64,000 bases of DNA from an uncultured Candidatus Saccharibacteria bacterium (GCA_964450605.1 CAYVEK010000003.1:32778-96777), one strand, 5' to 3'. Positions 40,996 through 63,145 are shown, counted from the stretch's first letter. Translations and numbers: made by a program. Notes: a model not told the origin generated them from the letters alone.

Positions 40996-41105
40996 GGATG
41001 AAGATTTATGACTTAAAATAACCTTAATTTATGTAAATAAATACCCTTATGCACCATCGGATATTGCACGATATATAGTCTAATATATCCACAAAAACAG
41101 TTCAA

Positions 41106-44100: not shown

Positions 44101-45539
44101 CAGTAGAAAGCATTATACATGGGGCACAAAAAATAACTGGGGCACGAGAAAAAATAAAAAGTCTAGAATCAAAACTAGAAGCAGAGCAAGCCCGATTAGA
44201 CACCTTAACCGACCCAGCAAGAGAACTAACTGAAGCTGAGTACAATACCGCCCTTACAACTGTTGAATTTCCAGATGTTGAAAATGATATGGATACATTC
44301 TTGGAAAGAATTCATTCTGAATACGAAACATTACGAGGTGGTATGAAAAGTGATGGAATAGGCTTTGCCACATCTTTCTATAAAAGATGGGCCCAAAGAG
44401 TTGAGGACGTTGAAAATGTTGAAGGAAAAATCAACGAAGCTGAAAAACAAAAAACAGTACTTGAAGAAGCTATATCAACGACCCAAGAAAGTATTGATGG
44501 TGCAAGAACTATGGGCCACACAGACACAGTAGAAGTACTTACAAAAAAGTTAAAAAAACTACAAAAGCTTTTAAAGAAACAGCAAAAAGCAGCCTCAAAG
44601 GAGATCAAGCCTCTCGGCCTCTTGGGAAGAATAAGAAATAAAACACTCGCGTATTTTGGTAGTATGGAGACATCTGACTATGTTGAAGTAAACAAACTGC
44701 AAAGCAAACTGACAATACTTAGAGATAATAGACTTCTACCTGAGGGTGAGCCTTACACAACAAAAGAAACCGCAGAATCAAACTGGAAAAAACTTAATGA
44801 ATATATTGATGCAAGAAGGACTGGCAAGCTAGATACATTGGATGCTGAAACCAAAAGATACGCTGAACCTATATACAATAACCTGTTCCAGAGTTTTGCT
44901 CGAGACAAATATTCATTTAACAGTGCTGACAACAGACAAACCGTAAAAGAAAAAATAATAGAAAACCAGGAGAGTGTTGTAGAAGACTTATCTGATGAAT
45001 TATCACAAGAAAATGAAAAGGTGCTTGATGCCAGATCAAGAGTAATAAACCCTCTTGATCGAAGCTCTATAGCATCAGAGCAGATGGCCGAAGTACTAAA
45101 ATCAAAAGATATTGATTCATACATATCAGAACTTGGAGATGATAAGGACACCATAACTGCAAACAAAATCAGAACAATACTAACGAAAGGAGAGAATATG
45201 TTTAGAAGAGGATCTGCTTATGGACCCCTACAACAAAAAATAGAAAAAGCAGCGATAACAACAGTGGGTACAATTCGAAGATATTTAGAATCCAAAAGGC
45301 TGTTTGAGTCTGCCGAGAATACGATTCTAAAACTAAAAGTTATTCTTGTATTCTCACTAGAACAAGCTATAAGATCTGAGCTTGTAACAAAAGCAAAGAA
45401 AAAAGAGGTACTTGATCAATTTGAGAAAATTCTTGGAGAATATAGAAAGGATTTTGTGAAAAAAGGAGACAGATACTCTATATCAGAGACAGATAGTTTG
45501 CTTCGAGAAATAGAAAACATGAAAACACGAATAATATAA
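41106..45539 (+). CDS. Giant (1477 aa) K/E-rich coiled-coil protein of unknown function.
   Basis: Continuous ORF with no TM helix, signal peptide or P-loop, and long heptad-like K/E/L-rich stretches. The start may be the internal Met at 41142 (MEILKNDGG...). Confidence 0.65.
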   Translation: MMRLGFSWYNFCMEILKNDGGNQEFTPEQQKIVDQIGILRSETKKLEEEIKILEEKGATIPLTPQDRSRLASKKRDVTKKQQEIALLKKQYDDLYGDKVEKPEIKTENTEDSLIEDLIGQANRLLGEGLSLDGNKAERARTLLERIEKQPGSSKYTALLADLRILTSNTPEPTPSPEREEGDPSGPEKGTTDNRSEGGDVGAEKNKPLKPEKIGGKWDTGDWEKDLHTIKTDFEHNEKLTFTEGLWKKKFGGDKRDGLEPKDTDTVLILEEKIVSAALAVEVINYIIPKLEKVTRPNHTSNYKESLHGWRQLREKLEKAKRKKVAENVEITNKEELEKLSTSIKRVLEGVDTVTALFGRRKLISSTKETLDTPSTQGLLVASTYYLECLELANIKDQILKKDKQDHTNLLQDLAKLHTKLSALEPFDTDAFESGGEELKDKFNQLKAKLKEKQITEEDLGKRSSGEKPPKPKGRTSTGTKDPTTGTTSKDSVPRIKTASELQSFLDGNHTLSESLKNTKDLREIVLRLKNEDVAIDDIDSSTVTLINNARSQITDLYGLIPIGESVSESNFNPVKESILDQLVPIWNILNKISLDKKPEAKALLTSIKSFCKRIGKDLPSNKKEVKNPTEVFESNITDKNSPFITKLVRFLKKTKRVLEFGHGAKPDTVELQKMEKEIPDDLNEDKKKIIRDVVCTAVQELLTSVTDASCKQTLIEISIKLDIEVPKPEEKEKPLYTVKSVGEYKFSNKESFVRELKKGDKSEYLVDVKILLVHLLDQIKHKVVSNEDAQTWKNIHKSIPIGCEPADYSPLTNILTDSNQIQEAISLIPSSEKEPLLGLRKALVSICVVLKIEVPKETPDPVDTPEIRTIQATLRREDIITGGTFKPEYERKAPGFKHYVEGVYVKRIQDSCFESDLPDSYKKSIDELFALYEPHAKTINDLSKALEVEDVVNSDLYNDFLHDMDMSPDTTHPVLRQELINNIVMSVLCGTYETVYKDSVESIIHGAQKITGAREKIKSLESKLEAEQARLDTLTDPARELTEAEYNTALTTVEFPDVENDMDTFLERIHSEYETLRGGMKSDGIGFATSFYKRWAQRVEDVENVEGKINEAEKQKTVLEEAISTTQESIDGARTMGHTDTVEVLTKKLKKLQKLLKKQQKAASKEIKPLGLLGRIRNKTLAYFGSMETSDYVEVNKLQSKLTILRDNRLLPEGEPYTTKETAESNWKKLNEYIDARRTGKLDTLDAETKRYAEPIYNNLFQSFARDKYSFNSADNRQTVKEKIIENQESVVEDLSDELSQENEKVLDARSRVINPLDRSSIASEQMAEVLKSKDIDSYISELGDDKDTITANKIRTILTKGENMFRRGSAYGPLQQKIEKAAITTVGTIRRYLESKRLFESAENTILKLKVILVFSLEQAIRSELVTKAKKKEVLDQFEKILGEYRKDFVKKGDRYSISETDSLLREIENMKTRII

Positions 45540-47874: not shown

Positions 47875-48696
47875 TTGGTATATACTGTGTCTATAATGCA
47901 AGCAAAAAAGTCTCTTGGCCAAAATTTCCTTAAAAATGAAGGTGTTTTGAACAAAATCAAACAAAAAACCGAGGAAATTCTCAAAAAAGAGCAGGTGCAC
48001 AACAAAAAAACTATAAAAATCCTAGAGATAGGACCAGGTAAAGGAGCCTTAACTAAGCACCTCCTAGATACAAAACATCCCGTTTTTGCCATAGAAGCCG
48101 ACGACAGGCTTATTCCAATCCTCCAAGAAACCTTTGAAAAACCTTTGAAAAACAAGGATTTTGAGCTTATCCATCAAGACATACGCCTATTTGAACCTAA
48201 AAACATAACAGATCCTTATATTCTAGTGGCCAATATTCCTTATTATCTAACAGGTTTTATATTTAGACAATTTTTAGAAAGTGAAAATCAACCTTTGGCC
48301 ATCATAGTCCTTATACAAAAAGAGGTTGCTAAACGCATAATAGACACAAAACAAACACTTCTATCTTTATCAGTGCAGATTTATGGAGAACCGCACATTC
48401 TGACCCATGTATCAAAAGGGAACTTTACTCCCGCACCAAAGGTAGATTCTTCAGTTTTGGTTATAGAAAATATAAGTAAAAAACATTTTAAAAACAAAAC
48501 TGAAGAAAAAAAGTTCTGGGAAATAGCCAAAAAAGCATTTGGAAGCAAGAGAAAACAGCTTGGGGGAACAATTTTAAAGAACCTACCACAGGAAACAAAA
48601 TCAAAATTATCTCAATATCTAACAAAAAGACCTGAAGATCTATCCATTTCTGATTGGCTTATCATAACTTCATGTTATGATATAGATAATGAATAG
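47875..48696 (+). CDS. rsmA: 16S rRNA (adenine1518/1519-N6)-dimethyltransferase KsgA/RsmA.
   Basis: SLGQNFL, EIGPGKGALT and ANIPYYLT. Confidence 0.9.
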   Translation: MVYTVSIMQAKKSLGQNFLKNEGVLNKIKQKTEEILKKEQVHNKKTIKILEIGPGKGALTKHLLDTKHPVFAIEADDRLIPILQETFEKPLKNKDFELIHQDIRLFEPKNITDPYILVANIPYYLTGFIFRQFLESENQPLAIIVLIQKEVAKRIIDTKQTLLSLSVQIYGEPHILTHVSKGNFTPAPKVDSSVLVIENISKKHFKNKTEEKKFWEIAKKAFGSKRKQLGGTILKNLPQETKSKLSQYLTKRPEDLSISDWLIITSCYDIDNE

Positions 48697-49531
48697 AAAG
48701 ACTATAAACTTAGCTGCTGTTTGTTTTGTTATTGTATTAGTTGTTTTTGTGTACACACAAAGAACAAAGAAGCACTCTCTATCTGTTGAACCCAATGTTG
48801 CAGTAGATAAGACAGAGATACTAGGGAAGGTGGAGATAGATGAAAATAACTATCAAGAGAGTATTTTTAAAGCAATAGTACAACAACAACTCCTCGCCTT
48901 TGAAAAGATCAATGATTCTTACAAGAAAAAACCAGGAGACACACTGACAGACCAGATAACTAAAGACATTTTTGGTGAATATATACAATACAACGTCTCT
49001 GGCGAGCTCGACAGCAAAACACTTTCACAGGTAACAGAGAACAATATCAAAGGTCAAACCCTTCCAAAGTCATCGGTTACTTTGAAACAGATAAAAATGA
49101 CGAAAGCCACACTGGCAAACCTAAAGGCTTATGGAAACAACATGGTTGTTATTCAAAACTCTTTTAGTAAAGCTGTTGCAAGCATCTCAAACAAAAAAGA
49201 TCAGGATAGATACCTCCCAGCACTTTACAGCAAAATGGCTGTGATTCTGGCAAAACAACCCGCTCCAACTGTTGTGGCTCAATACCACCTAAACCTCATA
49301 AACTCTTATCGAGATTTTGCATACTCATTTAAAGTTATGGAACTACAATCAAAAGATCCAGCAAAGGCCTTACTTGGTGTAAACAACGCGAAAGCCGCAA
49401 GTGAGTCTTTGGTTAAAAACTTTGCTGAGATACAGCGTGTTATAAAATTAAACAAAATCGAGTATTCAGCAAAAGAACCCGCTTATAGGTGGATAAATGA
49501 AATAGATAATAGTATTATTACTACAGAGTAA
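48689..49531 (+). CDS. Hypothetical membrane-anchored protein.
   Basis: N-terminal TM anchor (INLAAVCFVIVLVVFVYT) with a soluble C-terminal domain and no recognised motif. First gene of the downstream T4SS-like block. Confidence 0.5.
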   Translation: MNRKTINLAAVCFVIVLVVFVYTQRTKKHSLSVEPNVAVDKTEILGKVEIDENNYQESIFKAIVQQQLLAFEKINDSYKKKPGDTLTDQITKDIFGEYIQYNVSGELDSKTLSQVTENNIKGQTLPKSSVTLKQIKMTKATLANLKAYGNNMVVIQNSFSKAVASISNKKDQDRYLPALYSKMAVILAKQPAPTVVAQYHLNLINSYRDFAYSFKVMELQSKDPAKALLGVNNAKAASESLVKNFAEIQRVIKLNKIEYSAKEPAYRWINEIDNSIITTE

Positions 49532-49532
49532 T

Positions 49533-51188
49533 ATGAATAAGTTTTCTCTTCGAAACTTAAAAAAGAATTTTCTACCATTGTTTTTTGTGTTGACTTTTTT
49601 GATACAACCTGTTTTTGTGCTTGGTGCCGGTAGCACCAGAGTAAACAACCAGGCGCCCATACCACAAGGAGATGGGGGAATGGGGGAAGACACTGATTAT
49701 ATGTTCCCTGGAGCCGGGGTTGATGATTCTGGTAATGTCAACGTTCCGGATAGTCCTTTGGGCAGCGAAAACAACCCTCTAGATTTTGGATCACTTGGCG
49801 CCGATCCTTTCAGCTCACCTGATGGACCTGACCCTTTTTTATCAGGAGGAGATGATGATTTTACACCAGGAGAAGTTATAGGTGACGGTCAACAGCAAAA
49901 AGGCCTTCTACCTTACCCAGATGATTATACAGCAACAGATCAGTATGGTAACCCAGTTGACTTAAACGGAGATGGCCAAGCTGCTGCATATGCAAATGGA
50001 GATATTTTATTAAAAGATGGCACTGAGGCACCTTACAGAGATTCTGATTCCATCGGCTCATCTGCTGATAGAGACCTAGCAACAACCATCAGAAACGTAC
50101 AACGAAGCACTGTAGCCCAAGCACAGGCTTACGCAAACGGTACAGGAAGTAGTACAACACAAGGCGCAGGAAGTATACCAGGATCTGCTGGCGCATGTAT
50201 CGCAGGAAAACTACTATCAACAATACTCGCCTCAACAATCACCGCGGCCATAAATACAATTGTAGGTACAGCCGAAACGGTTATAGGAACAGCTATAGGT
50301 CTCTTGAGTGTACCTGTTGCTGACTGGAATGTTAAACTCGACACACTTAGAACAAAAGAACAGCTCCAGTTTAATAACGCAGCCCAAATAGGAACATCAG
50401 CTGGAATACCAGGAAGTATAAATGCTTTAGTAAATGTGAGTTGGAACTCTGTTGGATACTGTATAATAAACTCAATGATCGACTACATAGCTCGATCAAC
50501 TATCGCTTGGGCAAAATCAGGATTTAAAGGAAACCCTGCGTTTATCGAAAACCCAGGACAATTCTTTAAAGATATAGGAAATATAGAAGCAAGTTCTTTC
50601 CTAAACACACTTGCATACGGAGTACTCGGACAAAACATCTGTCAACCATTTAGAGCACAGATAGTGTTAACTATTGCCAGAGATTATCTTGATTCAAACG
50701 GATCAGGATACTACGGCTCCGCTGGTTATGGGGGAGGGGGGTATAACGGTATAGGTAATCCTAGAACTTTTGGAGGTTGTAGTCTTGATGATGCTAAAAA
50801 CAACTTCAAAAGCTTCTTGAAAGGAAACTTTAACGAGGGTGGTTGGAACAGTTGGCTAAAAGTGTCACAGATAGATACAAATAACCCTTATTCCGTATAC
50901 CTAAACCTAAGCTCACAACTAAGCAGTCGTGTAACACAAAAGAAGACTATTGTCGATAAAGAGCTTACTTGGAACAAAGGATTCTTGAGTTTCAGAAAAT
51001 GTGAAAATAAAAACATGAAGCCTCAAGATTGTCCTATAGTTACTCCAGGAAACCTTATCGAAGATCAACTTTCTAAAACACTTAACCTGTCAAAAGATAG
51101 ACTTGTACTTGCAGAAAAATTTGATCAGGTTCTAGATGTTGTGATTAACCAACTTATAAACACAGCATTAAGTAAACTTTTGAATTAA
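49533..51188 (+). CDS. Secreted protein with a Gly/Asp-rich N-terminal region (T4SS-like cluster).
   Basis: Signal peptide (FLPLFFVLTFLIQPVFVLGAGS), a G/D/P-rich low-complexity segment, a hydrophobic segment and a GYGGGGYNG motif. Confidence 0.55.
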   Translation: MNKFSLRNLKKNFLPLFFVLTFLIQPVFVLGAGSTRVNNQAPIPQGDGGMGEDTDYMFPGAGVDDSGNVNVPDSPLGSENNPLDFGSLGADPFSSPDGPDPFLSGGDDDFTPGEVIGDGQQQKGLLPYPDDYTATDQYGNPVDLNGDGQAAAYANGDILLKDGTEAPYRDSDSIGSSADRDLATTIRNVQRSTVAQAQAYANGTGSSTTQGAGSIPGSAGACIAGKLLSTILASTITAAINTIVGTAETVIGTAIGLLSVPVADWNVKLDTLRTKEQLQFNNAAQIGTSAGIPGSINALVNVSWNSVGYCIINSMIDYIARSTIAWAKSGFKGNPAFIENPGQFFKDIGNIEASSFLNTLAYGVLGQNICQPFRAQIVLTIARDYLDSNGSGYYGSAGYGGGGYNGIGNPRTFGGCSLDDAKNNFKSFLKGNFNEGGWNSWLKVSQIDTNNPYSVYLNLSSQLSSRVTQKKTIVDKELTWNKGFLSFRKCENKNMKPQDCPIVTPGNLIEDQLSKTLNLSKDRLVLAEKFDQVLDVVINQLINTALSKLLN

Positions 51189-51231: not shown

Positions 51232-54200
51232 ATGAATATCTCTGGAGTAAAAAAAATATTTTCTCGTGTTGGTGTTTTGTTGTTTTTAATTTCTTTCTTG
51301 TGTTTGGGTTTTTTACCAAATAAAACAATTGCTCTACAAGATAAAACTGATGCAGGTTTTAAAGGGGAAGCTGTGACAACGGTTGATAGATATGAATTAG
51401 CAAACACTCCAACAAGCTTTATACAGAGCGGATTAACTGTAAAAGTTGTTAGCCCTGTGGTGAACGAAATCAGTCGGACATCAATAACAGGATCGACTAA
51501 CCCTCCAACATATTCTGTATCAAATACATACAGTCTGAGAAGAGATTATAATATAACAAAAGGCCCTATAGATGCCCAAACTCAAAAAAATCTTACATCA
51601 GGACAACTGAGTGCCATACAGGCAGCAGTTAAAGATAAGTACACTATAACAAAAGACAATGTCTTTGCCATCAACACACCTGATTCAACCAACTACTACA
51701 TAAAAGTTCAAAACCCAGCAGCAAAAGGTGGTTATGATAAATACTTGATAATGTCTGCTGTTGGAGATAATTTGTACATACCAGAAGAAAAAATAAAAGA
51801 ACTACCAACCTCAACAAAAGATGACATAGGGGCAACGGATGTAAAAAGAGAAGATGGATTTCTTAATATGATTGGTGCTCGGGAGGGTTTGCAGCCAGGA
51901 ACATTAGCATCACAGATTAGAGGAAATGATGCGACAAATGCCCAGATAGGTAACCTGACACAACAAAAAGAAGATCTTGAAAAACAGATTCGATCGGTCG
52001 AGGATGAGATAGATAATCTAAAAGCAAAACAAGACGCAGGAACACTGACGGCACAAGAGCAGCAGAGACTGGATGAGCTTGAAGGAAAGAGAAGCGGTCT
52101 TTTGTCTGAATTAGATATTGTAAATAAAAACAAACTTCAAACCACCGCCCTTTCAAACTCAGATGAAATCTCTATAGAAGAGTGTAAGGGTTTATTTGGT
52201 TGGGCAACCCTTAAATGTGCAGTACAAGCCATATCGGTACTTGCAAACATTGGACTAAAACTTGTTTCTTACGGACTAGGTCTCGTAGGAGTGATGTTTG
52301 ACTATTCTATAGAGCTCGCTGTAAACTCTGCGGAGTTTATAGAAAAGCTGGGAGTAGTAAATCCTGTTTGGACTCTACTTAGAGATCTCTTAAACATGAC
52401 CTTTATTTTTATACTGGTCTGGATAGCCATACAGATAATAATTGATAGAAAAAGATACACAATAAAAAAAGATGTTGTTCGTGTTGTTGTAGTTGCGATA
52501 CTTATGAACTTCAGTTTGTTTGTTGCCAAAGTTTTTGTTGATGGGTCAAACCTTGCAACACTACAACTCTATCAAGCAACAAAGAGTAGTGGAGTGGTGG
52601 CTGATCATGCAAATATTTCATATAGAATAATGAACACTCTCGGGTTTCAGACCATCTATAGTATTGGAGACATCTTCGCAAATGGTAACCTAACAAAAAC
52701 AATACTTGGTTGTGGTGGGGCAAATGGAACCATTATCAGTGTTGCTGTTTTTGGTTCTATATTTATGATTATTTTAAGTCTTGCGTTTTTGGCTGTAGGA
52801 TTATTATTCTTTGTTCGAATGGCAAATATAATATACTTGTTTGTAACATCACCTTTGTGGGTTTGGGGATACATACTTGATAATGAATTTTTCTCAAAGA
52901 TTAGAAACGATTGGTGGAAAAAAATGAAACATGTTGTAAAGTTTCCAGTCACATTCATGCTCTTTATGTTTGTGGCAGTATTCGCTTTCACAAAAATGTT
53001 CGCGCTTAGTTATGGAGGACTATCATTTCTAACCCTATTCTGTGTAAGTGATCAACCAACTATTATAGGCCAACTACCTTTGATACTAAACTTCTGTCTT
53101 GTTATCTGGGTAATACTTGCTGCGGTTAAAAAAGGCATGGAAGACAGTGAGGGCGGTATAGAAAAAGCAATCACAGGAAAGTTTGGTGGCTGGGCCCAGG
53201 CGGCTTCAACAGGTTTGGCAAGAAAAATGGGAGACAAGGCAAAACAAATACCTTATGCTGCTGGACAGGTTGGAAAAATAGCCTTTAATGGTGCCGGTAA
53301 CTTCAAAAGATTATCTGAGAAATATCCAACATTTGGAAATTTAAGTGGCTTTAAGGCATTAAATAAACTAGGATCAAAAATAGCATCTAATTCAAATTCT
53401 CCAGCATGGCTTAGAAACATGGGGGCAGGCTTAGCAAACAAAACCAAAGATCCAAAGTTCTTTGGAAAAACAACAGATGAGTGGAGAAAGAAAAGAAAAG
53501 AGTGGTGGGCCAGTGATGGTGAAAAAGATGCGGCCAGAACCGCTGAGGTTGCAGAAAGCGCAAAGAAAGCTCCTAAGTATCAAGAAAAAGGTCATGAACA
53601 GGAGAGTAGAAATCAGTTTGAAGAGCGTGTAAAAGCATTTGCTAAAGCAAAAGCGAGAATATATCTTGATCAAAACATATTAAATGTTGCAGACCCGACC
53701 AACAGCAACAAATCACATGAAGAAGGTATTATAGAGAACGCTTTGGCTGGAATTGAAGAGATAAAAGATGCAAACGGAAATGTGACAGGTCACCGATTCA
53801 ACGAGGAAAAAATGCGAAAGCATATCAACAATGTATATGAAGCCCATACAGAAAAAGGTCGTCTAAAATCTGTTGCAAGACATACAAAATCTCGATTCAT
53901 GTCTAAAGCAAAGTTTGAGGCCCGAGAAAAGGCATTTAAAGCTGCAACAGAAGCACGATACAAGTCTGTTCAAACATTGGAAAAATTACGAGACGATCTC
54001 AAAAAATCTGAGGATGACTTTAAAAACCATCCTGAAACACTGGCTGATTTAGAGACAAGAATACAAAATAAAGACCCTAAACTCAAAGGGGTTGTAAGTA
54101 TTGCGGCTATAGGTTCTTTAGAGAGAGATATCGCGAAACTTCAAACAAATATTGCATATATACAACACGCAGTGCAAACAACAGGTTCTCACCCAGATGA

Positions 54201-54348
54201 AGATAAAATAGATAAATACACAGAAGAAATAGAAAAGAAAGAAAAGAGGCTAGAAAGTATCAAGAAAGGAGCTCTACAAAACCGCGAAAAAATACAAAAG
54301 AAAATCGAAGAGTTAAAAGAAAAGATTAAAGAACAAGAAAAGAAATAA
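51232..54348 (+). CDS. VirB6/TrbL-like polytopic membrane protein (1038 aa) with a K/E-rich C-terminal tail.
   Basis: Signal peptide, an extracytoplasmic domain of about 300 aa, five to seven TM helices (residues ~330-640) and then about 400 aa of charged coiled-coil. This is the architecture of VirB6/TrbL/PrgH-type channel components. The call rests on topology and context only. Confidence 0.5.
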   Translation: MNISGVKKIFSRVGVLLFLISFLCLGFLPNKTIALQDKTDAGFKGEAVTTVDRYELANTPTSFIQSGLTVKVVSPVVNEISRTSITGSTNPPTYSVSNTYSLRRDYNITKGPIDAQTQKNLTSGQLSAIQAAVKDKYTITKDNVFAINTPDSTNYYIKVQNPAAKGGYDKYLIMSAVGDNLYIPEEKIKELPTSTKDDIGATDVKREDGFLNMIGAREGLQPGTLASQIRGNDATNAQIGNLTQQKEDLEKQIRSVEDEIDNLKAKQDAGTLTAQEQQRLDELEGKRSGLLSELDIVNKNKLQTTALSNSDEISIEECKGLFGWATLKCAVQAISVLANIGLKLVSYGLGLVGVMFDYSIELAVNSAEFIEKLGVVNPVWTLLRDLLNMTFIFILVWIAIQIIIDRKRYTIKKDVVRVVVVAILMNFSLFVAKVFVDGSNLATLQLYQATKSSGVVADHANISYRIMNTLGFQTIYSIGDIFANGNLTKTILGCGGANGTIISVAVFGSIFMIILSLAFLAVGLLFFVRMANIIYLFVTSPLWVWGYILDNEFFSKIRNDWWKKMKHVVKFPVTFMLFMFVAVFAFTKMFALSYGGLSFLTLFCVSDQPTIIGQLPLILNFCLVIWVILAAVKKGMEDSEGGIEKAITGKFGGWAQAASTGLARKMGDKAKQIPYAAGQVGKIAFNGAGNFKRLSEKYPTFGNLSGFKALNKLGSKIASNSNSPAWLRNMGAGLANKTKDPKFFGKTTDEWRKKRKEWWASDGEKDAARTAEVAESAKKAPKYQEKGHEQESRNQFEERVKAFAKAKARIYLDQNILNVADPTNSNKSHEEGIIENALAGIEEIKDANGNVTGHRFNEEKMRKHINNVYEAHTEKGRLKSVARHTKSRFMSKAKFEAREKAFKAATEARYKSVQTLEKLRDDLKKSEDDFKNHPETLADLETRIQNKDPKLKGVVSIAAIGSLERDIAKLQTNIAYIQHAVQTTGSHPDEDKIDKYTEEIEKKEKRLESIKKGALQNREKIQKKIEELKEKIKEQEKK

Positions 54349-55258: not shown

Positions 55259-55705
55259 ATGCGATATGAAGTACCACAGTTTATAGAGTTTGAGAGTAAG
55301 ATTGTTGGACCACTAACATTTAAGCAATTTGCCTATATCCTTGGAGCCGCTGGGGGAACATATATCATATACAGACTACTAGGCCTATTTCCTGGAATCA
55401 TTGTTATAATTCCTTTTTGGGTGCTAAGTTTTGCCTTGGCTTTTATTAGAGTAAACGATCGCCCTTTTGTGGATACTATTTCTGCTGCCTTTTCATTTGT
55501 TTTTGGAAACAAGCTATATGTTTGGAAAAAAATAGACAGACCCATAAAAAGCTCTGTTGGAGATGGATCAATAAAATCTTCAGCTGACGAGCTAACAGCT
55601 CCCACACTTTCTCAGAGTAAACTTAAAGAATTGGCTTGGGGTTTGGATATAAAACAGAACGTCTTCTCGGGACAATCACTCCTTGATAAAACAGAGAAAC
55701 ACTGA
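55259..55705 (+). CDS. VirB3/PrgI-like small membrane protein.
   Basis: 148 aa with PLTFKQFAYILGAAGGTYIIY and GIIVIIPFWVLSFALAFI forming a two-helix hairpin typical of VirB3/PrgI. It lies immediately upstream of VirB4, as VirB3 does in T4SS loci. Confidence 0.45.
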   Translation: MRYEVPQFIEFESKIVGPLTFKQFAYILGAAGGTYIIYRLLGLFPGIIVIIPFWVLSFALAFIRVNDRPFVDTISAAFSFVFGNKLYVWKKIDRPIKSSVGDGSIKSSADELTAPTLSQSKLKELAWGLDIKQNVFSGQSLLDKTEKH

Positions 55706-55730: not shown

Positions 55731-55802
55731 GGCGATTATAGTTTAGTGGTAAAACCCAGGTTTGTGGATCCTGTGTCGAGAGTTCGATTCTCTCTAATCG
55801 CC
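55731..55802 (+). tRNA. tRNA-His (anticodon GUG) with an encoded G-1 opposite C73.
   Basis: Hand-folded: extra 5' G, then acceptor GCGATTA/TAATCGC, D-arm GTTT/AAAC, anticodon loop TTGTGGA, T-arm GAGAG-TTCGATT-CTCTC, discriminator C. Confidence 0.85.
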
Positions 55803-55806
55803 CAAT
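55785..55806 (+). repeat. Direct repeat, copy 1 (the 3' end of tRNA-His): cgattctctctaatcgcccaat.
   Basis: An identical 22-mer occurs again at 55919-55940. Confidence 0.8.
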
Positions 55807-55918
55807 GTAACACAAGGAAAGCATATTATGCTTTCCTTAGAGAATCGAAAGGCTTTTGAGTATATTTTGAGCACTTTGTGCGAAAAATATCCAAAAGGCG
55901 TACTGGTCCTGTAAGGAC

Positions 55919-55940
55919 CGATTCTCTCTAATCGCCCAAT
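55919..55940 (+). repeat. Direct repeat, copy 2: a duplicated tRNA-His 3'-end 22-mer, att-site-like.
   Basis: Identical to 55785-55806. It is preceded by a ggtcctgtaaggacc hairpin, and the intervening 112 bp also contain the aaggaaagcata/tatgctttcctt hairpin. Confidence 0.8.
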
Positions 55941-55982
55941 TGGTTTATACATTTTGTATTATTTCAACATTCTCGGTATACT

Positions 55983-56609
55983 TTGTGTATGGCTTTTAAT
56001 GCATCTCAAGAATTTGTACCCATACAAGAAGTTAGGGAAGGTGTTCTTATATTGAAAGATGGTTCTATGCGAGCGGTTGTTTTGGCTTCTTCTATAAACT
56101 TTGCACTAAAGTCTATAGAGGAACAAGAGTCTGTTATTTATCAGTTTCAAAACTTCATAAACTCACTGGATTTCACTATACAGATATACATACAATCAAG
56201 AAAACTAGATATTCGACCTTATATAGCACTCCTAGATGATAGACTTAAGGCTCAAACAAGTGATCTTATGAAAATGCAGATCACGGAGTATATGAACTTT
56301 ATAAAAGGATTAACTGAGATTTCAAGCATTATGACAAAAAGCTTCTTTGTTGTGATTCCGTATGGAGGATCCACAAAAGAAACAAAGTTAAGTGATATTT
56401 TAAAAAGAAAAGATGAATCAAAAGAGGAAAAGAGTAGAGATGATGAGTTTGAGGAAGTAAAGAGTCAGATAGAACAACGAGTTTCTGTTGTTGAACAAGG
56501 GCTTGCACGTTGTGGAGTTAAAGTTGCTCGACTTGGAAGTGAAGAACTTGTTGAGTTGTTTTATAGAATTTTCAATCCCGGAGATGCAGAAAAACCAATA
56601 AAGATGTAG
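55983..56609 (+). CDS. VirB4-family ATPase, N-terminal domain, separated from the ATPase domain by an in-frame TAG.
   Basis: PIQEVREGVLILKDGSMRAVVLASSINFALKSIEEQESVIYQFQNFINSLDFTIQIYIQS matches the VirB4/TraC N-terminal pattern. It is in the same frame as 56619-58430, with a single TAG at 56607-56609. Confidence 0.6.
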   Translation: MCMAFNASQEFVPIQEVREGVLILKDGSMRAVVLASSINFALKSIEEQESVIYQFQNFINSLDFTIQIYIQSRKLDIRPYIALLDDRLKAQTSDLMKMQITEYMNFIKGLTEISSIMTKSFFVVIPYGGSTKETKLSDILKRKDESKEEKSRDDEFEEVKSQIEQRVSVVEQGLARCGVKVARLGSEELVELFYRIFNPGDAEKPIKM

Positions 56610-56618
56610 TATATATAC

Positions 56619-58430
56619 ATGGGATTTTTTGATTTCTTAAAACCAAAAACTAAACAGGTAACAAAAATAACATCTGTACTACCTCGAGATATTTACAGAT
56701 CTTCTGTTTTAGAACTAAAAGACATCATTGCTCCATCAGCATTAAAGATAACCCCAAAAACTCTAAACCTGGGAGAGAAACTTGTTCGAAGTTTTTTTGT
56801 AATGTCATACCCAAAGTATCTCTCAGACAGTTGGTTTTCTCCTATCATAAACCTCGATAAAGCCTTTGATATATCTATCTTTGTTCACCCCATAGACACA
56901 GCAACTATACTCCACGAGTTTGAAAAAAAAGTAACAGAGGCACAGAGCCAGATACAAGAGAGAGAAGAGAAGGGATTAGTTCGAGACCCTAAACTTGAAG
57001 CCTCATACCAAAACCTCGAAAACCTTCGAGATAACCTGCAACAAGCCCAGGAAAAGATGTTTGATGTTGGTATCTATATATCAGTTTATGGAGATAGCGA
57101 GGATGAACTCAACCGTATAGAATCAGAGATCAAGAGTACACTTGAAGCGTCTCTGGTATTTATAAAACCTTCACTCTTTCAACAAGAACAAGGTTTTAAA
57201 AGCGCTATTCCTGTTTCAACAGATGAGATGCAGATAAACTCAAAACTAAACTCTGCACCGCTATCTAGTATATTTCCTTTTATTTCTTTTGACCTTACCT
57301 CAGACAAAGGTATTCTCTATGGAATAAACAAACACAACAGCAGTCTTGTTTTGTTTGATAGATTTTCTCTTGAAAACTACAACTCTGTAACCTTTGCCAA
57401 AGCCGGAGCAGGAAAGTCCTATGCCACAAAACTTGAGATACTACGATCTTTGATGTTTGATATAGACGTTATTGTCCTTGACCCTGAGAGGGAGTATGAG
57501 TACCTAGCAGAAACAACAGGTGGTAGATATTTTAATATTTCTCTTACATCTGAAAACCATATAAATCCTTTTGATCTACCAACTCCACGGGAAGACGAAT
57601 CACCTGCTGATGTTCTTAGATCACACATCATAAATCTTGTAGGACTGTTTAGAATCATGTTGGGAGGCCTTACACAAGAAGAAGATGCTATCATTGACAG
57701 AGCTATCACAGAGACATATGCTCTCAAAGACATAACACCTGAGTCAAACTTTGCAGCGGTTGAACCTCCACTTATGTCTGATTTTGAGCTTGTACTTGCC
57801 GGTATGGAAGGAGGAGACTCTTTGGTACAACGACTTACAAAATATACAAAAGGAACTTGGGCTGGTTTTATAGACAAACCTTCAAACCTAGATATAAACA
57901 AGAAGTTTGTTGTATTTTCTCTACGAGACATGGAAGATGAGCTTAAACCAGTGGCTATGTACATAGTTATGCATTATATATGGAACGCTGTTCGAAAGGA
58001 GCTTAAAAAGCGTCTTTTGGTTATAGATGAGGCGTGGTGGATGATGAAATCAGAAGATACAGCTTCTTTCTTGTATGGTTTGGCAAAACGAGGTCGAAAA
58101 TACTACCTAGGAATGTCCACAATCACACAAGACGTTGAAGACTTTCTTAAATCACCTTATGGACTACCTATCATCACAAACTCATCTATGCAGTTCATGA
58201 TGAAACAGTCTCCTTCGTCTATAGATATGGTTCAGAGAACATTTAACCTTACAGATGAGGAAAAATACCTCCTTCTTGAATCGGCGGTGGGGGAAGGTAT
58301 CTTTTTCGCTGGAACAAAACATGTTGCTTTGCAGGTAGTGTCCTCAGAAACAGAGAGCAGGATCATAACATCCGACCCTGCACAGATACTAAAAATGAAA
58401 GAAGAGAAGAAAACTTGGTTAAGAAATTAA
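56619..58430 (+). CDS. virB4: VirB4/TrbE/CagE-family type IV secretion ATPase (C-terminal ATPase portion).
   Basis: Walker A FAKAGAGKSYATK, VLDPEREYEYL...GGRYFNIS...INPFDL, Walker B LLVIDEAWWMM and AKRGRKYYLGMSTITQDVED (the RK.G...TQ motif). Confidence 0.85.
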   Translation: MGFFDFLKPKTKQVTKITSVLPRDIYRSSVLELKDIIAPSALKITPKTLNLGEKLVRSFFVMSYPKYLSDSWFSPIINLDKAFDISIFVHPIDTATILHEFEKKVTEAQSQIQEREEKGLVRDPKLEASYQNLENLRDNLQQAQEKMFDVGIYISVYGDSEDELNRIESEIKSTLEASLVFIKPSLFQQEQGFKSAIPVSTDEMQINSKLNSAPLSSIFPFISFDLTSDKGILYGINKHNSSLVLFDRFSLENYNSVTFAKAGAGKSYATKLEILRSLMFDIDVIVLDPEREYEYLAETTGGRYFNISLTSENHINPFDLPTPREDESPADVLRSHIINLVGLFRIMLGGLTQEEDAIIDRAITETYALKDITPESNFAAVEPPLMSDFELVLAGMEGGDSLVQRLTKYTKGTWAGFIDKPSNLDINKKFVVFSLRDMEDELKPVAMYIVMHYIWNAVRKELKKRLLVIDEAWWMMKSEDTASFLYGLAKRGRKYYLGMSTITQDVEDFLKSPYGLPIITNSSMQFMMKQSPSSIDMVQRTFNLTDEEKYLLLESAVGEGIFFAGTKHVALQVVSSETESRIITSDPAQILKMKEEKKTWLRN

Positions 58431-59494
58431 ATATAGGTATAATAGTATTAATGCTACAAAAAACACTCATGCGTATATTTGCATTTGCGTTTTTTGTACT
58501 TGCCACAATGTACTCTTTTAGTTTTGTACAAGCACAATCAACCCAAGATTTTGTTGGACCAAATGGTATTAAAGAAATAAAAGAAAAAGTATACTACGAA
58601 GTTCTTCCAACCAAACCACGAGTAGGAGACACTGTAGACATAAGTACCGAGATGTATGGTACACCTGTAAAAGACGCTTATTTTACTTGGTATATTGATG
58701 GTAAGGAATACGAAAAGGGTATAGGAAGAAGCAAGATATCTTTCTATTTGTCAAAAAAAACAAATGTTTCTGTTAAAATTATCACAGGACCTGGATATCC
58801 AGCCGAAAACAGCTGGACTTTTAATCCACAAAACACCGTTATTATATGGGAAGCAAACACTTATACACCACCTTTCTATAAAGGAAAGTCTTTATACACA
58901 GCTGAGTCAGGTCTTATTTTAAATGCTATAAATCTAAGTGCCAAAAATCCTTTAACAAACACGTACAACAACTATATTTGGAAGGTTGATGGATCAGTAA
59001 AAGGGGACAACTCTGGTGTTGCTCAAAATACCTATCTGTATCAGGGAGATATTTTGATGCAGGAGCCTTATTTTGAGGTTATCATGCAGGGTGTTTCCGC
59101 GTACAGAAACGGCAAACAAGATCTAAGTGATGAAAGTTTAATAGATAGCAGTGCGGCAATACGAGTTCCAACACTTGAAACAACTGTTTTTACCTATGAA
59201 AACTCACCCCTTCTAGGTATATTATTTGATAAACAAGTAACAAACAACATATTTAGATTTAACAAAAGTGAAACCTCTCTTGTTGTATACCCAGGATATT
59301 TTAGTGTTCCATCGACTTTAAATATGGGTTATGAGTGGACTATAAACGATGACGTGGTAAAAAGAAACGTAAATTCTATAACCTTTAAGAAAATACGAGA
59401 TGATGAGCAGTCTCGTTTGTCTATAAGTCTTTCAAACCCAAAAGCTCTTCTGCAATCTAAAGATATTTCGTATATAATAGATACATCAAAATGA
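58415..59494 (+). CDS. Secreted hypothetical protein (T4SS-like cluster).
   Basis: Signal peptide (MRIFAFAFFVLATMYSFSFVQAQS); likely start at the Met near 58451. No motif recognised. Confidence 0.5.
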   Translation: MVKKLNIGIIVLMLQKTLMRIFAFAFFVLATMYSFSFVQAQSTQDFVGPNGIKEIKEKVYYEVLPTKPRVGDTVDISTEMYGTPVKDAYFTWYIDGKEYEKGIGRSKISFYLSKKTNVSVKIITGPGYPAENSWTFNPQNTVIIWEANTYTPPFYKGKSLYTAESGLILNAINLSAKNPLTNTYNNYIWKVDGSVKGDNSGVAQNTYLYQGDILMQEPYFEVIMQGVSAYRNGKQDLSDESLIDSSAAIRVPTLETTVFTYENSPLLGILFDKQVTNNIFRFNKSETSLVVYPGYFSVPSTLNMGYEWTINDDVVKRNVNSITFKKIRDDEQSRLSISLSNPKALLQSKDISYIIDTSK

Positions 59495-60624
59495 AAAAAG
59501 GTGTAATACATATATTTATAACAACTCTATTCTTGTTTAGTATCTTTGTTGTTGGACCAAAAACCCTAAAAGCTGAAGAAAAATCTATACTACAAACACT
59601 TTCAGGTGAACAAAAAACTTGTCGATATGTTAAAGACGGACTCTATAAACCTTTTTCAAACATAAGCACAGATTTTGTTTTATTTAAAGATGTTTTTAAT
59701 CTAAAAACAAAAGGAGGTAAAACAGAGTGTTTGGTGATTGCAGGAAGTACTGATCGGTTCTTGTTTATGATTTTTAGACTATTTATAGGATTCTCATCGG
59801 TTTTAGCTGTTGTTTATATAGCTATTGCAGGTATTGGACTTATAGTAGAAGAAGCAGACCCAAACAAGCGTATAAAAGCTCGCCAAATGCTTAAAAACGC
59901 CCTTATAGGACTACTTTTGTCTGTAGGCGCTTGGGTTATCTTATATACTGTAAACAATAAACTTACAGAGTTTTCACTAGATGAAACGATAGGAAAAACA
60001 GGCTTTGATAAGGTTATAGAACAAGGGGCAAAAAATGCTGCTAGAAATATAGCAATCGCAAACAGTGAAATTAAGCAAGGTAACGCCAATGGAGTAGGTG
60101 GTACAGGATCATTATTAACCACAGCGGGTGCTATAGATCAGAGAGCGGACAGTATTGAATTCGCAAGAACAGGAACCTTGGTAGAATCGAGAGATCCTAC
60201 AGTTCCAAACTATATTGAAAAATCATACACACCAACAACTATTGATGGAAAAACCTTTTACGTGGGAAAAGTTACAACCTTTGGAGGTGTTGGGGATATA
60301 AACACTAAATCATATGACAATCTTGCTATCGATGATAGTATGAGGGAGATTGATTTAAATCAAAATGACGAGTTCATCAGTGCACGTTGGGCATATAGTA
60401 TGGTTGGTAAAAATGATCTAAAAAGTTACGATGTTGAGGTTGCAAACCCTACAACAGGGAAGAGTATTATACTTAGAGCAAATAATGGTATAGCAGTTAA
60501 AGACTGGGGTCCTCATCCAAACGCAAACAGTAATGCTGATTACGATACAAGTAAAGCTGTTCTTGATAAGATCGGTGTGCCTGACGGCGGACAGATAGCT
60601 GTTAGATTAATACCTAAAAAATAG
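59491..60624 (+). CDS. Membrane-anchored RlpA-like (DPBB) domain protein: a putative T4SS-associated cell-wall hydrolase (VirB1/TcpG/PrgK analogue) with a VirB2-like two-helix hairpin.
   Basis: Signal peptide, a Cys pair, then a hydrophobic hairpin (FLFMIFRLFIGFSSVLAVVYIAIAGIGLIV ... LIGLLLSVGAWVILYTV). The C-terminus (GKVTTFGGVGD...ARWAYS...YDVEVANPTTGKSIILRANNGIAVKDWGP...D.SKAVLDKIG...GQIAV) resembles the RlpA double-psi beta-barrel. Confidence 0.5.
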   Translation: MKKGVIHIFITTLFLFSIFVVGPKTLKAEEKSILQTLSGEQKTCRYVKDGLYKPFSNISTDFVLFKDVFNLKTKGGKTECLVIAGSTDRFLFMIFRLFIGFSSVLAVVYIAIAGIGLIVEEADPNKRIKARQMLKNALIGLLLSVGAWVILYTVNNKLTEFSLDETIGKTGFDKVIEQGAKNAARNIAIANSEIKQGNANGVGGTGSLLTTAGAIDQRADSIEFARTGTLVESRDPTVPNYIEKSYTPTTIDGKTFYVGKVTTFGGVGDINTKSYDNLAIDDSMREIDLNQNDEFISARWAYSMVGKNDLKSYDVEVANPTTGKSIILRANNGIAVKDWGPHPNANSNADYDTSKAVLDKIGVPDGGQIAVRLIPKK

Positions 60625-62006: not shown

Positions 62007-62732
62007 CTATTTAACTAGTTGATCTTTGTATTTTCTTCTGAAATATAGCTCTTGACCAATCATAAAGATAGAACTTACTATCCAATACAGAGCAACTGAA
62101 GCAGAAACATTTAGAGCGGCTATAAATATAAGTGTGGGCATAAAAAACTTCATCAACACAGACATTTGTTTTTGCATCATTTGTTCTTGTGTTAGAGGTT
62201 TACCAGGCTCAGCTTTAACCTCCATATGATTCAAAGATAGTCGTATTTGTATATATTGAAATATAAAAGCCAGAACACCTATGGTAGTACTTGTTTTTAT
62301 AAAATCTATACCAAAAAGAATATGTTTAACTTCCGGTGTGTGAGATATAAAACTATACAAATCTGCTGTATTTATAGTAGGGAGACCTCCTCGAGAAAAC
62401 ACAAAGTACAGCGCAAAAACTATAGGGATCTGTATAAGTAGAAGTAGAATAGAAGAGAAAGGGTTTAGTTTATGTTCTCTGTATAATTCAAGCATTTTAA
62501 TACCCAATAACTGCCTGTTGTCTTTATATTCTTCTTGTATTTTACGTAGAAGAGGTTGTATCTTTCTTTGTGCTATTTGAGACAAAAACATCTTCTTTGA
62601 AAGAGGAAGGAGTATTATTTTTACAAGAATGGTTAGTATAACAACCGCAACAGCAACCTGTCCTCCAGGTATAGCTGATAATATAAACACCAACGCGTTG
62701 TACATTGGTTTATAGAATAGAAAATGGAACAT
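62007..62732 (-). CDS. yidC: Membrane protein insertase YidC (short form).
   Basis: Five TM helices, ILTILVKIILLPLS.K....Q...KIQP....IQEEYKDN.Q......ELYREHKLNPF, and a conserved position next to rnpA. Confidence 0.85.
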   Translation of the reverse strand: MFHFLFYKPMYNALVFILSAIPGGQVAVAVVILTILVKIILLPLSKKMFLSQIAQRKIQPLLRKIQEEYKDNRQLLGIKMLELYREHKLNPFSSILLLLIQIPIVFALYFVFSRGGLPTINTADLYSFISHTPEVKHILFGIDFIKTSTTIGVLAFIFQYIQIRLSLNHMEVKAEPGKPLTQEQMMQKQMSVLMKFFMPTLIFIAALNVSASVALYWIVSSIFMIGQELYFRRKYKDQLVK

Positions 62733-62735
62733 ATT

Positions 62736-62993
62736 TTATTTAATTAAATCTTCTTTAATTTTATTAACAATATTGTTAAATGATTCTTGAATCATATCAC
62801 GTTCAAGATTAAAAAACAGAGATTGTGTTGGGGGAGGAGTTGTTTTTAAAACCTCTTTAAGGGCATGGCGAGCTCTTCTTTTAACTCGGTTTCTCTCAAC
62901 AGCTGTTTTGAAGACTTTTTTCTTGGCAATAAAATAAAACCCAGGTTTTTGGCCAGGGGTTTTATTTTGTATCTTTTTCAATACGTAAAGCAT
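62736..62993 (-). CDS. rnpA: Ribonuclease P protein component.
   Basis: AKKKVFKTAVERNRVKRRARHALKEV (the RnpA A.RN..KR..R motif), located between rpmH and yidC. Confidence 0.8.
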   Translation of the reverse strand: MLYVLKKIQNKTPGQKPGFYFIAKKKVFKTAVERNRVKRRARHALKEVLKTTPPPTQSLFFNLERDMIQESFNNIVNKIKEDLIK

Positions 62994-63007
62994 AAGTATT
63001 CAAAAAA

Positions 63008-63145
63008 CTATACTGTAGAAAGGTTTTTTCGACCTTTTCGTCGTCGAGCTTGTAGAGTTCTTCGTCCTCCATGTGTTTTTGTTCGAGATAGGAAACCGTG
63101 AGTTCGGGCTCGCTTCTTTACTTTTGGGTTATATGTAAATGACAT
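63008..63145 (-). CDS. rpmH: 50S ribosomal protein L34.
   Basis: Manual translation: MSFTYNPKVKKRARTHGFLSRTKTHGGRRTLQARRRKGRKNLSTV, 45 aa. It is absent from the ORF track because it is under 60 aa. Confidence 0.9.
   Translation of the reverse strand: MSFTYNPKVKKRARTHGFLSRTKTHGGRRTLQARRRKGRKNLSTV

What the first reader, a model, noticed from the sequence alone, without database searches (positions are those of the whole stretch)
56595..56630. VirB4 gene interrupted by a single in-frame TAG, with a restart 9 nt downstream.
ORFs 55983-56609 (VirB4 N-domain) and 56619-58430 (VirB4 ATPase) are in the same frame, separated only by TAG TAT ATA TAC then ATG. Together they give a VirB4 of normal length (~815 aa).

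TAG is used as a genuine stop elsewhere, for example at rpsT and rpmH, so stop-codon reassignment is unlikely. The alternatives are: a recent nonsense mutation in an incipient pseudogene; a sequencing error; a genuine two-polypeptide VirB4 produced by reinitiation at the Met 3 codons downstream; or low-level readthrough. Each has different implications for whether the T4SS is functional.
Basis: seen in the sequence. Interest (0 to 1): 0.65.

Follow-up and report, generated by a model that had tools for sequence, protein, structure and literature searches.

The report
Two-gene VirB4 (TrsD-like plus ATPase)

Summary
Nine bases later (TAT ATA TAC) ORF-C (56619-58430) starts with ATG in the same frame.

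It is not an interrupted gene. In 79 of 80 related species genomes, a full-length homologue of ORF-N lies directly upstream of the VirB4 gene and ends at the same homologous position. Those junctions use all three stop codons, fall in all three relative frames (only 15 of 79 in frame), and have spacers of about -7 to 486 nt. Three spacers contain an inserted gene. Both genes are under strong purifying selection (dN/dS 0.06 and 0.02).

ORF-N matches the first ~170 positions of VirB4 profiles and the TrsD/TraD profile end to end, and its predicted fold matches only TrwK/VirB4. ORF-C covers the rest of VirB4. Staphylococcal pSK41/pGO1-type plasmids have the same break (TraD then TraE).

A 2025 paper already reports TrsD as the most abundant T4SS component of Patescibacteria, usually next to virB4. 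Pseudogene, sequencing error and obligatory readthrough are rejected. The in-frame arrangement here is chance.

Verdict: already known, low interest.

The parts
55259..55705 (+). PrgI-family (VirB3-like) T4SS gene upstream of the pair
   Evidence: Pfam PF12666 PrgI, E 3.3e-07, above the gathering score.
55732..55803 (+). tRNA-His(GTG) between the virB3-like gene and ORF-N. It is a context feature, not part of the T4SS.
   Evidence: Rfam tRNA at 64 bits. ARAGORN calls tRNA-His gtg. Present at this place only in the three closest relatives, L001-L003.
55904..55920 (+). Terminator-like hairpin after the tRNA and before ORF-N
   Evidence: Consensus scan: 7-bp stem followed by a T-rich tail. Function is inferred only.
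55977..55982 (+). -10-like hexamer TATACT, 6 nt upstream of the ORF-N ATG; a putative promoter for a leaderless transcript
   Evidence: 22 of 48 gene starts in the window have a TAnnnT hexamer 5-9 nt upstream of the ATG, against 3.4 +/- 1.8 at random ATGs; 31 of 76 ORF-N orthologues have the same feature. Inferred, not shown.
55989..56609 (+). ORF-N: TrsD/TraD-like protein (206 aa), equivalent to the first ~170-175 residues of the VirB4 N-terminal domain and encoded as a separate gene
   Evidence: - NCBIfam: TrsD profile 17-200 of 201 (E 7e-6), VirB4_CagE positions 9-169 of 792, CD1110 positions 2-102.
- Structure: AF2 model pLDDT 89.9; its top 14 PDB fold matches are all TrwK/VirB4.
- Conservation: full-length orthologue upstream of virB4 in 79 of 80 species; dN/dS 0.059.
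56607..56609 (+). TAG, the genuine stop codon of ORF-N
   Evidence: Orthologues stop at the homologous codon with TAA 57, TAG 15 and TGA 7.
56607..56612 (+). TAGTAT, a -10-like hexamer that includes the stop codon, 6 nt upstream of the ORF-C ATG; a possible internal promoter
   Evidence: One search shows it lies at the modal distance. It is not conserved: only 14 of 79 relatives have such a hexamer before ORF-C, so this is weak.
56610..56618 (+). 9-nt intergenic spacer TATATATAC
   Evidence: Spacers in relatives range from about -7 to 486 nt, most often 1 or 4 nt.
56619..58430 (+). ORF-C: short VirB4 (603 aa) carrying the rest of the N-terminal domain plus the Walker A/B ATPase domain
   Evidence: - NCBIfam conju_CD1110 positions 180-733 of 752, 361 bits, above the cut-off of 325.
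- Pfam P-loop_TraG, AAA_10 and DUF87.
- PDB 4AG5 VirB4 C-terminal domain, E 2e-38, and TrwK residues 283-735.
- Motifs GAGKS and LLVIDEAW are present.
- dN/dS 0.020.
59491..60624 (+). Downstream T4SS gene with a pilin-like (VirB2-like) domain
   Evidence: Pfam PF18895 T4SS_pilin, E 1e-4, below the gathering score. This is weak.

Best explanation
These are two genuine, separately translated genes that together make one VirB4. ORF-N (206 aa) is a TrsD/TraD-like protein that supplies, in trans, the first ~170-175 residues of the VirB4 N-terminal domain. ORF-C (603 aa) supplies the rest of that domain and the ATPase domain.

The TAG is the ordinary stop of the first gene, and the shared reading frame is coincidental. 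This gene pair is the standard form of VirB4 in the chromosomal T4SS of Patescibacteria. Staphylococcal pGO1/pSK41 plasmids have the same break (TrsD/TraD then TrsE/TraE).

Expression (inferred): the pair is most likely co-transcribed from a -10-like box immediately upstream of ORF-N, as a leaderless or nearly leaderless mRNA. ORF-C would then be translated by coupling or re-initiation across the 9-nt gap, in a genome that barely uses Shine-Dalgarno sites. An internal -10-like box (TAGTAT, which includes the stop codon) may add independent leaderless transcription of ORF-C in this lineage.

Assembly of the two proteins into a VirB4-like unit is also inferred, not shown.
For: Conservation of the split:
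- 119 of the 120 best homologues of the artificially fused protein are 575-703 aa and cover only the C part.
- In 79 of 80 species-representative genomes an ORF-N homologue (50-90% identity, full length) sits directly upstream. It ends at the homologous position with TAA/TAG/TGA in 57/15/7 genomes, relative frames 0/+1/+2 in 15/41/23, and spacers from about -7 to 486 nt.
- Three spacers carry an inserted 23S_rRNA_IVP gene.
- Of the best 150 ORF-N family representatives at 50% clustering, 149 are stand-alone. There are 2373 clusters at E<=1e-3.

Selection:
- Against the closest relative, dN/dS is 0.059 for ORF-N and 0.020 for ORF-C, with synonymous sites near saturation.

Complementary homology:
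- ORF-N matches VirB4_CagE 9-169, CD1110 2-102 and TrsD 17-200 of 201. ORF-C matches CD1110 180-733 and VirB4_CagE 283-726.
- The ORF-N model (pLDDT 89.9) matches only TrwK/VirB4 chains.

Same break in pSK41-type plasmids:
- traD (227 aa) is followed after 20 nt by the traE-position VirB4 gene, annotated DUF87 (670 aa).
- ORF-C residue 8 aligns with residue 6 of that TraE-position protein.
- The ORF-N family profile against TraD gives hhalign E 7e-5.

Literature:
- PMC12102498 reports 2272 TrsD homologues in Patescibacteria, 1664 of them next to VirB4, and the TrsD homologue listed as essential in Ca. Southlakia epibionticum.

Expression:
- SD-like motifs occur at 4 of 48 genes.
- -10-like hexamers lie 5-9 nt before the ATG at 22 of 48 genes, against 3.4 expected, including ORF-N and ORF-C.
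- No terminator-like site lies between the two genes.
Against: - The match to the NCBIfam TrsD model is far below its curated cut-off (26 against 200 bits). hhalign against S. aureus TraD gives only 62% probability. Relatedness to staphylococcal TrsD is therefore remote.
- Physical association of the two proteins was not shown. The model of a naturally fused homologue was too poor to judge packing (pLDDT 61, pTM 0.39).
- Because the two ORFs are in frame here, a trace of readthrough product cannot be excluded from sequence alone.
- The mode of ORF-C translation (coupling or its own leaderless transcript) is untested. The internal -10-like box is not conserved (14 of 79).
Confidence: 0.92

Rival explanations
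1. Recent nonsense mutation: an incipient pseudogene of a once continuous VirB4, leaving the T4SS non-functional.
For: The two ORFs are in frame and only 9 nt apart. Rare continuous homologues exist: P0004 (846 aa) and P0260 (797 aa).
Against: - The stop is at the same homologous position in 79 of 79 informative species genomes, in every frame and with every stop codon.
- dN/dS is 0.06 and 0.02, with synonymous sites near saturation.
- 149 of 150 family representatives are stand-alone.
- In P0004 the fused form translates the former spacer (…KM-NWFDKLIINN-MGIF…), so the fusion is the derived state.
Confidence: 0.01
2. Sequencing or assembly error that created a false stop codon.
For: None beyond the in-frame arrangement.
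Against: - Independent assemblies have a stop at the same codon: L001 (TAG plus 12 nt), L003 (TAA plus 9 nt) and L002 (TAA plus 17 nt, out of frame).
- Clusters at 94-97% identity from other sources are also 603 aa.
Confidence: 0.01
3. Programmed TAG readthrough or recoding gives a full-length ~812-aa VirB4 as a functionally required product.
For: The pair is in frame here and in 15 of 79 relatives. Natural fused homologues show that a fused protein is tolerated.
Against: - 64 of 79 relatives are out of frame or have long spacers with inserted genes, so a fused product cannot be required in the family.
- TAG ends 12 of 48 long ORFs, including rpmH and yidC.
- The 5 tRNA genes found in the 64-kb window include no suppressor tRNA.
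Confidence: 0.03
4. The two-gene reading holds, but ORF-C is expressed mainly from its own leaderless transcript. That transcript would be driven by the TAGTAT box containing the ORF-N stop codon, rather than by translational coupling.
For: - TAGTAT ends 6 nt before the ATG, which is the modal spacing of the -10-like boxes found at 22 of 48 gene starts.
- TAGTAT preceded by TGC occurs at the same spacing before the gene starting at 32849 on the minus strand.
- In some relatives the two genes are separated by 440-490 nt containing another gene, so independent initiation of ORF-C must be possible.
Against: - Only 14 of 79 relatives have such a hexamer before ORF-C, against 31 of 76 before ORF-N.
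- No -35 element was detected by the consensus scan.
- Thirty-eight of 79 junctions have spacers of 4 nt or less, which is typical of coupling.
Confidence: 0.25

Closest known systems
TrsD plus VirB4 of the Patescibacteria T4SS (Quinonero-Coronel et al. 2025, PMC12102498; essential T4SS of Ca. Southlakia epibionticum, Wang et al. 2023, PMC10633639)
   Same: - A chromosomal T4SS with a PrgI/VirB3-like gene, then a TrsD-like gene, then virB4.
- A pilin-like gene downstream, and no relaxase seen nearby.
- Location next to rpmH-rnpA-yidC.
- The paper reports TrsD as the most abundant component, with 1664 of 2272 homologues adjacent to VirB4.
   Different: Nothing essential. In this lineage a tRNA-His gene is inserted between the virB3-like and trsD-like genes, and the two ORFs happen to share a frame.
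TrsD/TraD plus TrsE/TraE of staphylococcal conjugative plasmids pGO1/pSK41 (a sub-class of MPF_FATA)
   Same: - Same gene order and same break point: traD (227 aa), a 20-nt spacer, then the 670-aa VirB4 gene.
- ORF-C residue 8 aligns with residue 6 of the 670-aa protein.
- The ORF-N family matches the TrsD profile end to end and S. aureus TraD over 167 columns.
   Different: - Similarity is very remote: 23% identity for the ATPase, and 26 bits against a cut-off of 200 for TrsD.
- The staphylococcal system is a plasmid conjugation apparatus with a relaxase. This one is chromosomal and strongly conserved between species.
Single-chain VirB4 (TrwK of R388; CD1110-family VirB4 of Firmicutes)
   Same: - ORF-N plus ORF-C cover the profile from end to end (CD1110 2-102 and 180-733).
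- The ORF-N fold matches TrwK chains.
- The ATPase domain matches 4AG5 at E 2e-38.
   Different: Here the first ~175 residues of the N-terminal domain are a separate polypeptide.

Membership tests
VirB4 family ATPase (ORF-C) | Score above the curated cut-off of a VirB4 family model | tested here: met
   NCBIfam NF045971 conju_CD1110 scores 361.1 bits against a cut-off of 325, covering profile positions 180-733 of 752. Only the C-terminal ~75% of the profile is covered.
VirB4 family ATPase (ORF-C) | Walker A and Walker B nucleotide-binding motifs | tested here: met
   AKAGAGKSYATK (Walker A) and RLLVIDEAWW (Walker B) are read directly in the translation. The region aligns with the VirB4 C-terminal domain 4AG5 at E 2e-38.
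VirB4 family ATPase (ORF-N plus ORF-C as one unit) | Complete N-terminal domain in the same polypeptide | tested here: not met
   The first ~170-175 profile positions lie in ORF-N, separated by a stop conserved in 79 of 79 relatives.
TrsD/TraD family (NCBIfam NF041427) (ORF-N) | Score above the curated cut-off of 200 bits | tested here: not met
   26 bits, E 7.2e-6, although the match runs end to end (protein 8-196, profile 17-200 of 201). ORF-N is a remote relative, not a member of the staphylococcal-type subfamily as NCBI defines it.
TrsD as used for Patescibacteria (CONJScan/MacSyFinder FATA TrsD profile, PMC12102498) | Hit to the CONJScan TrsD profile | not testable with these tools
   That profile is not in the available libraries. 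Indirect support comes from hhalign of the ORF-N family against S. aureus TraD (E 7e-5, probability 62%, 167 columns).
TrsD as used for Patescibacteria | Remote homology to the N-terminal portion of VirB4 | tested here: met
   - VirB4_CagE positions 9-169, VirB4_plasma 104-240 and CD1110 2-102.
- Pfam TraC_F_IV positions 14-175.
- Foldseek: the top 14 hits are all TrwK/VirB4.
TrsD as used for Patescibacteria | Encoded immediately upstream of virB4 in a T4SS cluster | tested here: met
   Nine nt upstream in the window. Directly upstream in 79 of 80 related genomes. A PrgI/VirB3-like gene lies upstream of the pair.

The most novel reading that the evidence does not exclude
In this lineage the stop codon of the trsD-like gene doubles as the first half of a -10 box (TAGTAT, 6 nt before the ATG). 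That box would start a leaderless virB4 transcript, so the ATPase could be made independently of its detached N-terminal piece. This would be one case of a genome-wide leaderless style of expression: -10-like boxes lie 5-9 nt before 22 of 48 start codons, and Shine-Dalgarno sites are almost absent. A still less likely reading is that low-level TAG readthrough adds a minor fused isoform.
Probability: 0.2. Interest if true: 0.3.

Novelty: already known. Interest (0 to 1): 0.12.

Why it matters
The main value is in annotation. The T4SS here should not be scored as degraded or non-functional, and the TAG should not be 'repaired' or read as evidence of recoding. Automated pseudogene callers, or a reader of raw sequence, could easily merge or flag this pair.

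A secondary point concerns TrsD, for which the literature says no function has been assigned. The complementary profile coverage, the fold match and the break point shared with pSK41/pGO1 TraD|TraE all indicate that it is the detached N-terminal sub-domain of VirB4. That gives a concrete hypothesis to test in the essential T4SS of Patescibacteria.

Tried and rejected
- **Fused-homologue model.** I modelled the naturally fused homologue P0004 from a mixed alignment of N-only, C-only and fused sequences, to see whether the N piece packs as in TrwK. The model was poor (pLDDT 61, pTM 0.39), so no fold search was run on it and no conclusion was drawn.
- **Sequence search of PDB with ORF-N alone.** It found nothing meaningful. 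Only profile and fold comparisons detect the relationship.
- **Full-text search for 'split VirB4'.** No papers. 'TrsD' is absent from the main text of Guglielmini et al. 2014, so the statement that TrsD resembles the VirB4 N-terminus is taken from PMC12102498.
- **Own Shine-Dalgarno site for ORF-C.** None was found, but SD-like motifs are nearly absent genome-wide, so this criterion is uninformative.
- **Conserved internal promoter before ORF-C.** Not conserved in relatives.
- **Longer ORF-N homologues as truncated fused VirB4s.** Forty-one of the 150 representatives are 261-460 aa. None of them matches ORF-C, and the eight inspected carry disordered tails, so they are not truncated fusions.

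Full report
**1. The observation**

The sequence is as described. An ORF open from TTG 55983, with its first ATG at 55989, ends with TAG at 56607-56609. Nine bases follow (TAT ATA TAC). ATG 56619 then opens a 603-codon ORF ending at 58430, in the same frame.

Pfam places ORF-N on positions 14-175 of the TraC_F_IV profile. ORF-C falls on positions 289-373 of that profile, followed by the P-loop_TraG, AAA_10 and DUF87 ATPase domains.

TAG is a normal stop in this genome. It ends 12 of 48 long ORFs, including rpmH and yidC.

**2. Is the gene interrupted, or are there two genes?**

I searched the protein database with an artificial fusion of the two ORFs. Of the 120 best hits (78-100% identity), 119 are 575-703 aa and cover only the C part, which is 74% of the query. 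One, P0004 (846 aa, 68% identity), is continuous.

I then fetched 80 species-representative genomes encoding a close relative of ORF-C (73-95% identity; Patescibacteria, Paceibacterota, Parcubacteria and similar) and examined each junction.

- In 79 of 80, a full-length homologue of ORF-N (50-90% identity) lies directly upstream. The exception, L066, is cut by a contig end.
- Each homologue ends at the homologous position, just after the conserved …EKPI… motif.
- Stop codons are TAA 57, TAG 15 and TGA 7.
- The relative frame of the two genes is 0, +1 and +2 in 15, 41 and 23 genomes.
- Spacers run from small overlaps to 486 nt, most often 1 or 4 nt. In 70 of 79 an ATG aligns with residue 1 of ORF-C.
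- The closest relatives, from independent assemblies, show TAG plus 12 nt (L001), TAA plus 9 nt (L003) and TAA plus 17 nt out of frame (L002).
- In L014, L015 and L047 the spacer contains an inserted 23S_rRNA_IVP (PF05635) gene flanked by inverted repeats. The two halves therefore do not need to be contiguous.

Against L001, synonymous sites are near saturation (pS 0.65-0.68). pN is 0.08 for ORF-N and 0.03 for ORF-C, giving dN/dS of 0.059 and 0.020.

A search of 1.84 billion representative proteins with ORF-N found 2373 clusters at E<=1e-3. Of the best 150, only P0260 (797 aa) also contains the C part. The other 149 are stand-alone.

In P0004 the sequence across the junction reads …EKPIKM-NWFDKLIINN-MGIFD…. 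The former spacer is translated there, so the fused form looks like a secondary loss of the stop.

Both ORFs are separate gene calls in the public record.

These results exclude a recent nonsense mutation and a sequencing error. A required readthrough product is very unlikely, because most relatives are out of frame.

**3. What the two proteins are**

NCBIfam gives complementary coverage.

| ORF | Model | Region matched | Score |
|---|---|---|---|
| ORF-N | VirB4_CagE | profile 9-169 of 792 | |
| ORF-N | CD1110-family VirB4 | profile 2-102 of 752 | |
| ORF-N | TrsD/TraD (NF041427) | protein 8-196 on profile 17-200 of 201 | E 7e-6, 26 bits, cut-off 200 |
| ORF-C | CD1110-family VirB4 | profile 180-733 | 361 bits, cut-off 325 |
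| ORF-C | VirB4_CagE | profile 283-726 | |

ORF-C aligns with the VirB4 C-terminal domain structure 4AG5 (E 2e-38) and with TrwK residues 283-735. It carries Walker A (GAGKS) and Walker B (LLVIDEAW) motifs.

An AlphaFold2 model of ORF-N built from 48 family members is confident (pLDDT 89.9). Its 14 best PDB matches are all TrwK/VirB4 chains of the R388 T4SS (E 1e-3 to 2e-2, TM 0.48-0.61 over the query). Nothing credible follows; the next hit has E 0.16 and probability 0.25.

Together the two proteins therefore make one VirB4, broken inside the N-terminal domain at about profile position 175.

**4. Comparison with what is known**

A staphylococcal pSK41/pGO1-type plasmid (CP030502) has traD (227 aa) followed after 20 nt by the 670-aa gene at the traE position, annotated as DUF87. 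Its protein aligns from residue 6 with residue 8 of ORF-C, which is the same break point. The ORF-N family profile aligns with TraD over 167 columns (hhalign E 7e-5, probability 62%).

Quinonero-Coronel et al. 2025 (PMC12102498) report the following:
- It is the most abundant T4SS component in Patescibacteria (2272 homologues), and 1664 of these are associated with VirB4.
- The homologue in Ca. Southlakia epibionticum is listed as essential, citing Wang et al. 2023 (PMC10633639).

The surrounding genes fit that system. A PrgI/VirB3-like gene lies upstream and a pilin-like gene downstream. The cluster abuts yidC-rnpA-rpmH.

The arrangement is therefore already described. The window is an ordinary member of it.

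**5. How ORF-C is probably expressed (inferred)**

Shine-Dalgarno-like motifs precede only 4 of 48 genes. By contrast, 22 of 48 start codons have a -10-like hexamer (TAnnnT with at least one further match to TATAAT) ending 5-9 nt upstream, most often 6 nt. Random ATGs give 3.4 +/- 1.8. This suggests widespread leaderless or near-leaderless transcripts.

ORF-N has TATACT at a gap of 6 nt, after a terminator-like hairpin that follows the tRNA-His gene. Among its orthologues, 31 of 76 have such a box.

ORF-C also has one: TAGTAT at a gap of 6 nt, whose first three bases are the stop codon. Only 14 of 79 relatives have such a box, and 38 of 79 junctions have spacers of 4 nt or less. No terminator-like site separates the genes.

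The most likely route is co-transcription with translational coupling or re-initiation. An internal promoter is possible as a lineage-specific addition.

**6. What did not work**

The model of the fused homologue P0004 was too poor to judge how the N piece packs against the rest (pLDDT 61). Physical assembly of the two proteins therefore remains an inference from homology.

**7. Verdict**

The 'interrupted gene' reading is not supported, and the 'two-polypeptide VirB4' alternative is. This is a known arrangement, so interest is low.

Noticed in passing
window 55732-55803 (+); L001 3071-3144, L002 3202-3275, L003 3296-3367: A tRNA-His(GTG) gene sits inside the T4SS cluster, between the PrgI/VirB3-like gene and the trsD-like gene. 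It is followed by a terminator-like hairpin at 55904-55920. Among 40 related loci scanned, it is present only in the three closest relatives.
   Followed up: partly
whole window (48 long ORFs), e.g. upstream of starts at 18941(-), 29932(-), 29999(+), 36935(+), 58451(+): SD-like motifs precede only 4 of 48 genes. In contrast, 22 of 48 have a -10-like hexamer, often TGnTATAAT-like, ending 5-9 nt before the ATG, against 3.4 +/- 1.8 at random ATGs. This suggests mostly leaderless expression in this genome.
   Followed up: partly
L014 3556-4001, L015 3512-4001, L047 2972-3420; also the spacers of L009, L022, L062, L064 and L075: In three relatives a small 23S_rRNA_IVP (PF05635, four-helix-bundle) gene flanked by long inverted repeats is inserted exactly between the trsD-like and virB4 genes. 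Several other relatives have ORF-less, palindrome-rich spacers of 68-167 nt at the same place, possibly remnants or miniature versions of such elements.
   Followed up: partly
proteins P0004 (846 aa) and P0260 (797 aa): Rare natural single-chain versions exist. In P0004 the former intergenic spacer is translated (KM-NWFDKLIINN-MGIF), which indicates a secondary fusion by loss of the stop. The origin of P0260 (ancestral or re-fused) was not resolved.
   Followed up: partly
proteins P0142, P0145, P0164, P0170, P0196, P0201, P0230, P0235 (TrsD-like, 338-443 aa): Forty-one of the 150 TrsD-like representatives are 261-460 aa, and none of them matches ORF-C. The eight inspected carry long, low-complexity C-terminal tails of roughly 100-240 residues, variously rich in P, Q, T, A, S or acidic residues. 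Their role is unknown.
   Followed up: no
window 62007-63145 (-) and cumulative GC skew around 40000-42000: The T4SS cluster abuts yidC (62007-62732), a short 85-aa rnpA-like ORF (62736-62993) and rpmH (63008-63145). This fits the reported placement of Patescibacteria T4SS loci near the replication origin. However, the cumulative GC-skew minimum and a switch in gene orientation lie near 40-42 kb, and no dnaA was identified among the ORFs I scanned.
   Followed up: no
window 41109-45539 (+), 51232-54348 (+), 48689-51188 (+): Large ORFs (1476 aa and 1038 aa) and two further ORFs (280 and 551 aa) upstream of the T4SS genes have no significant Pfam match, apart from weak coiled-coil hits on the 1038-aa protein. 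Whether they belong to the secretion system is unknown.
   Followed up: no
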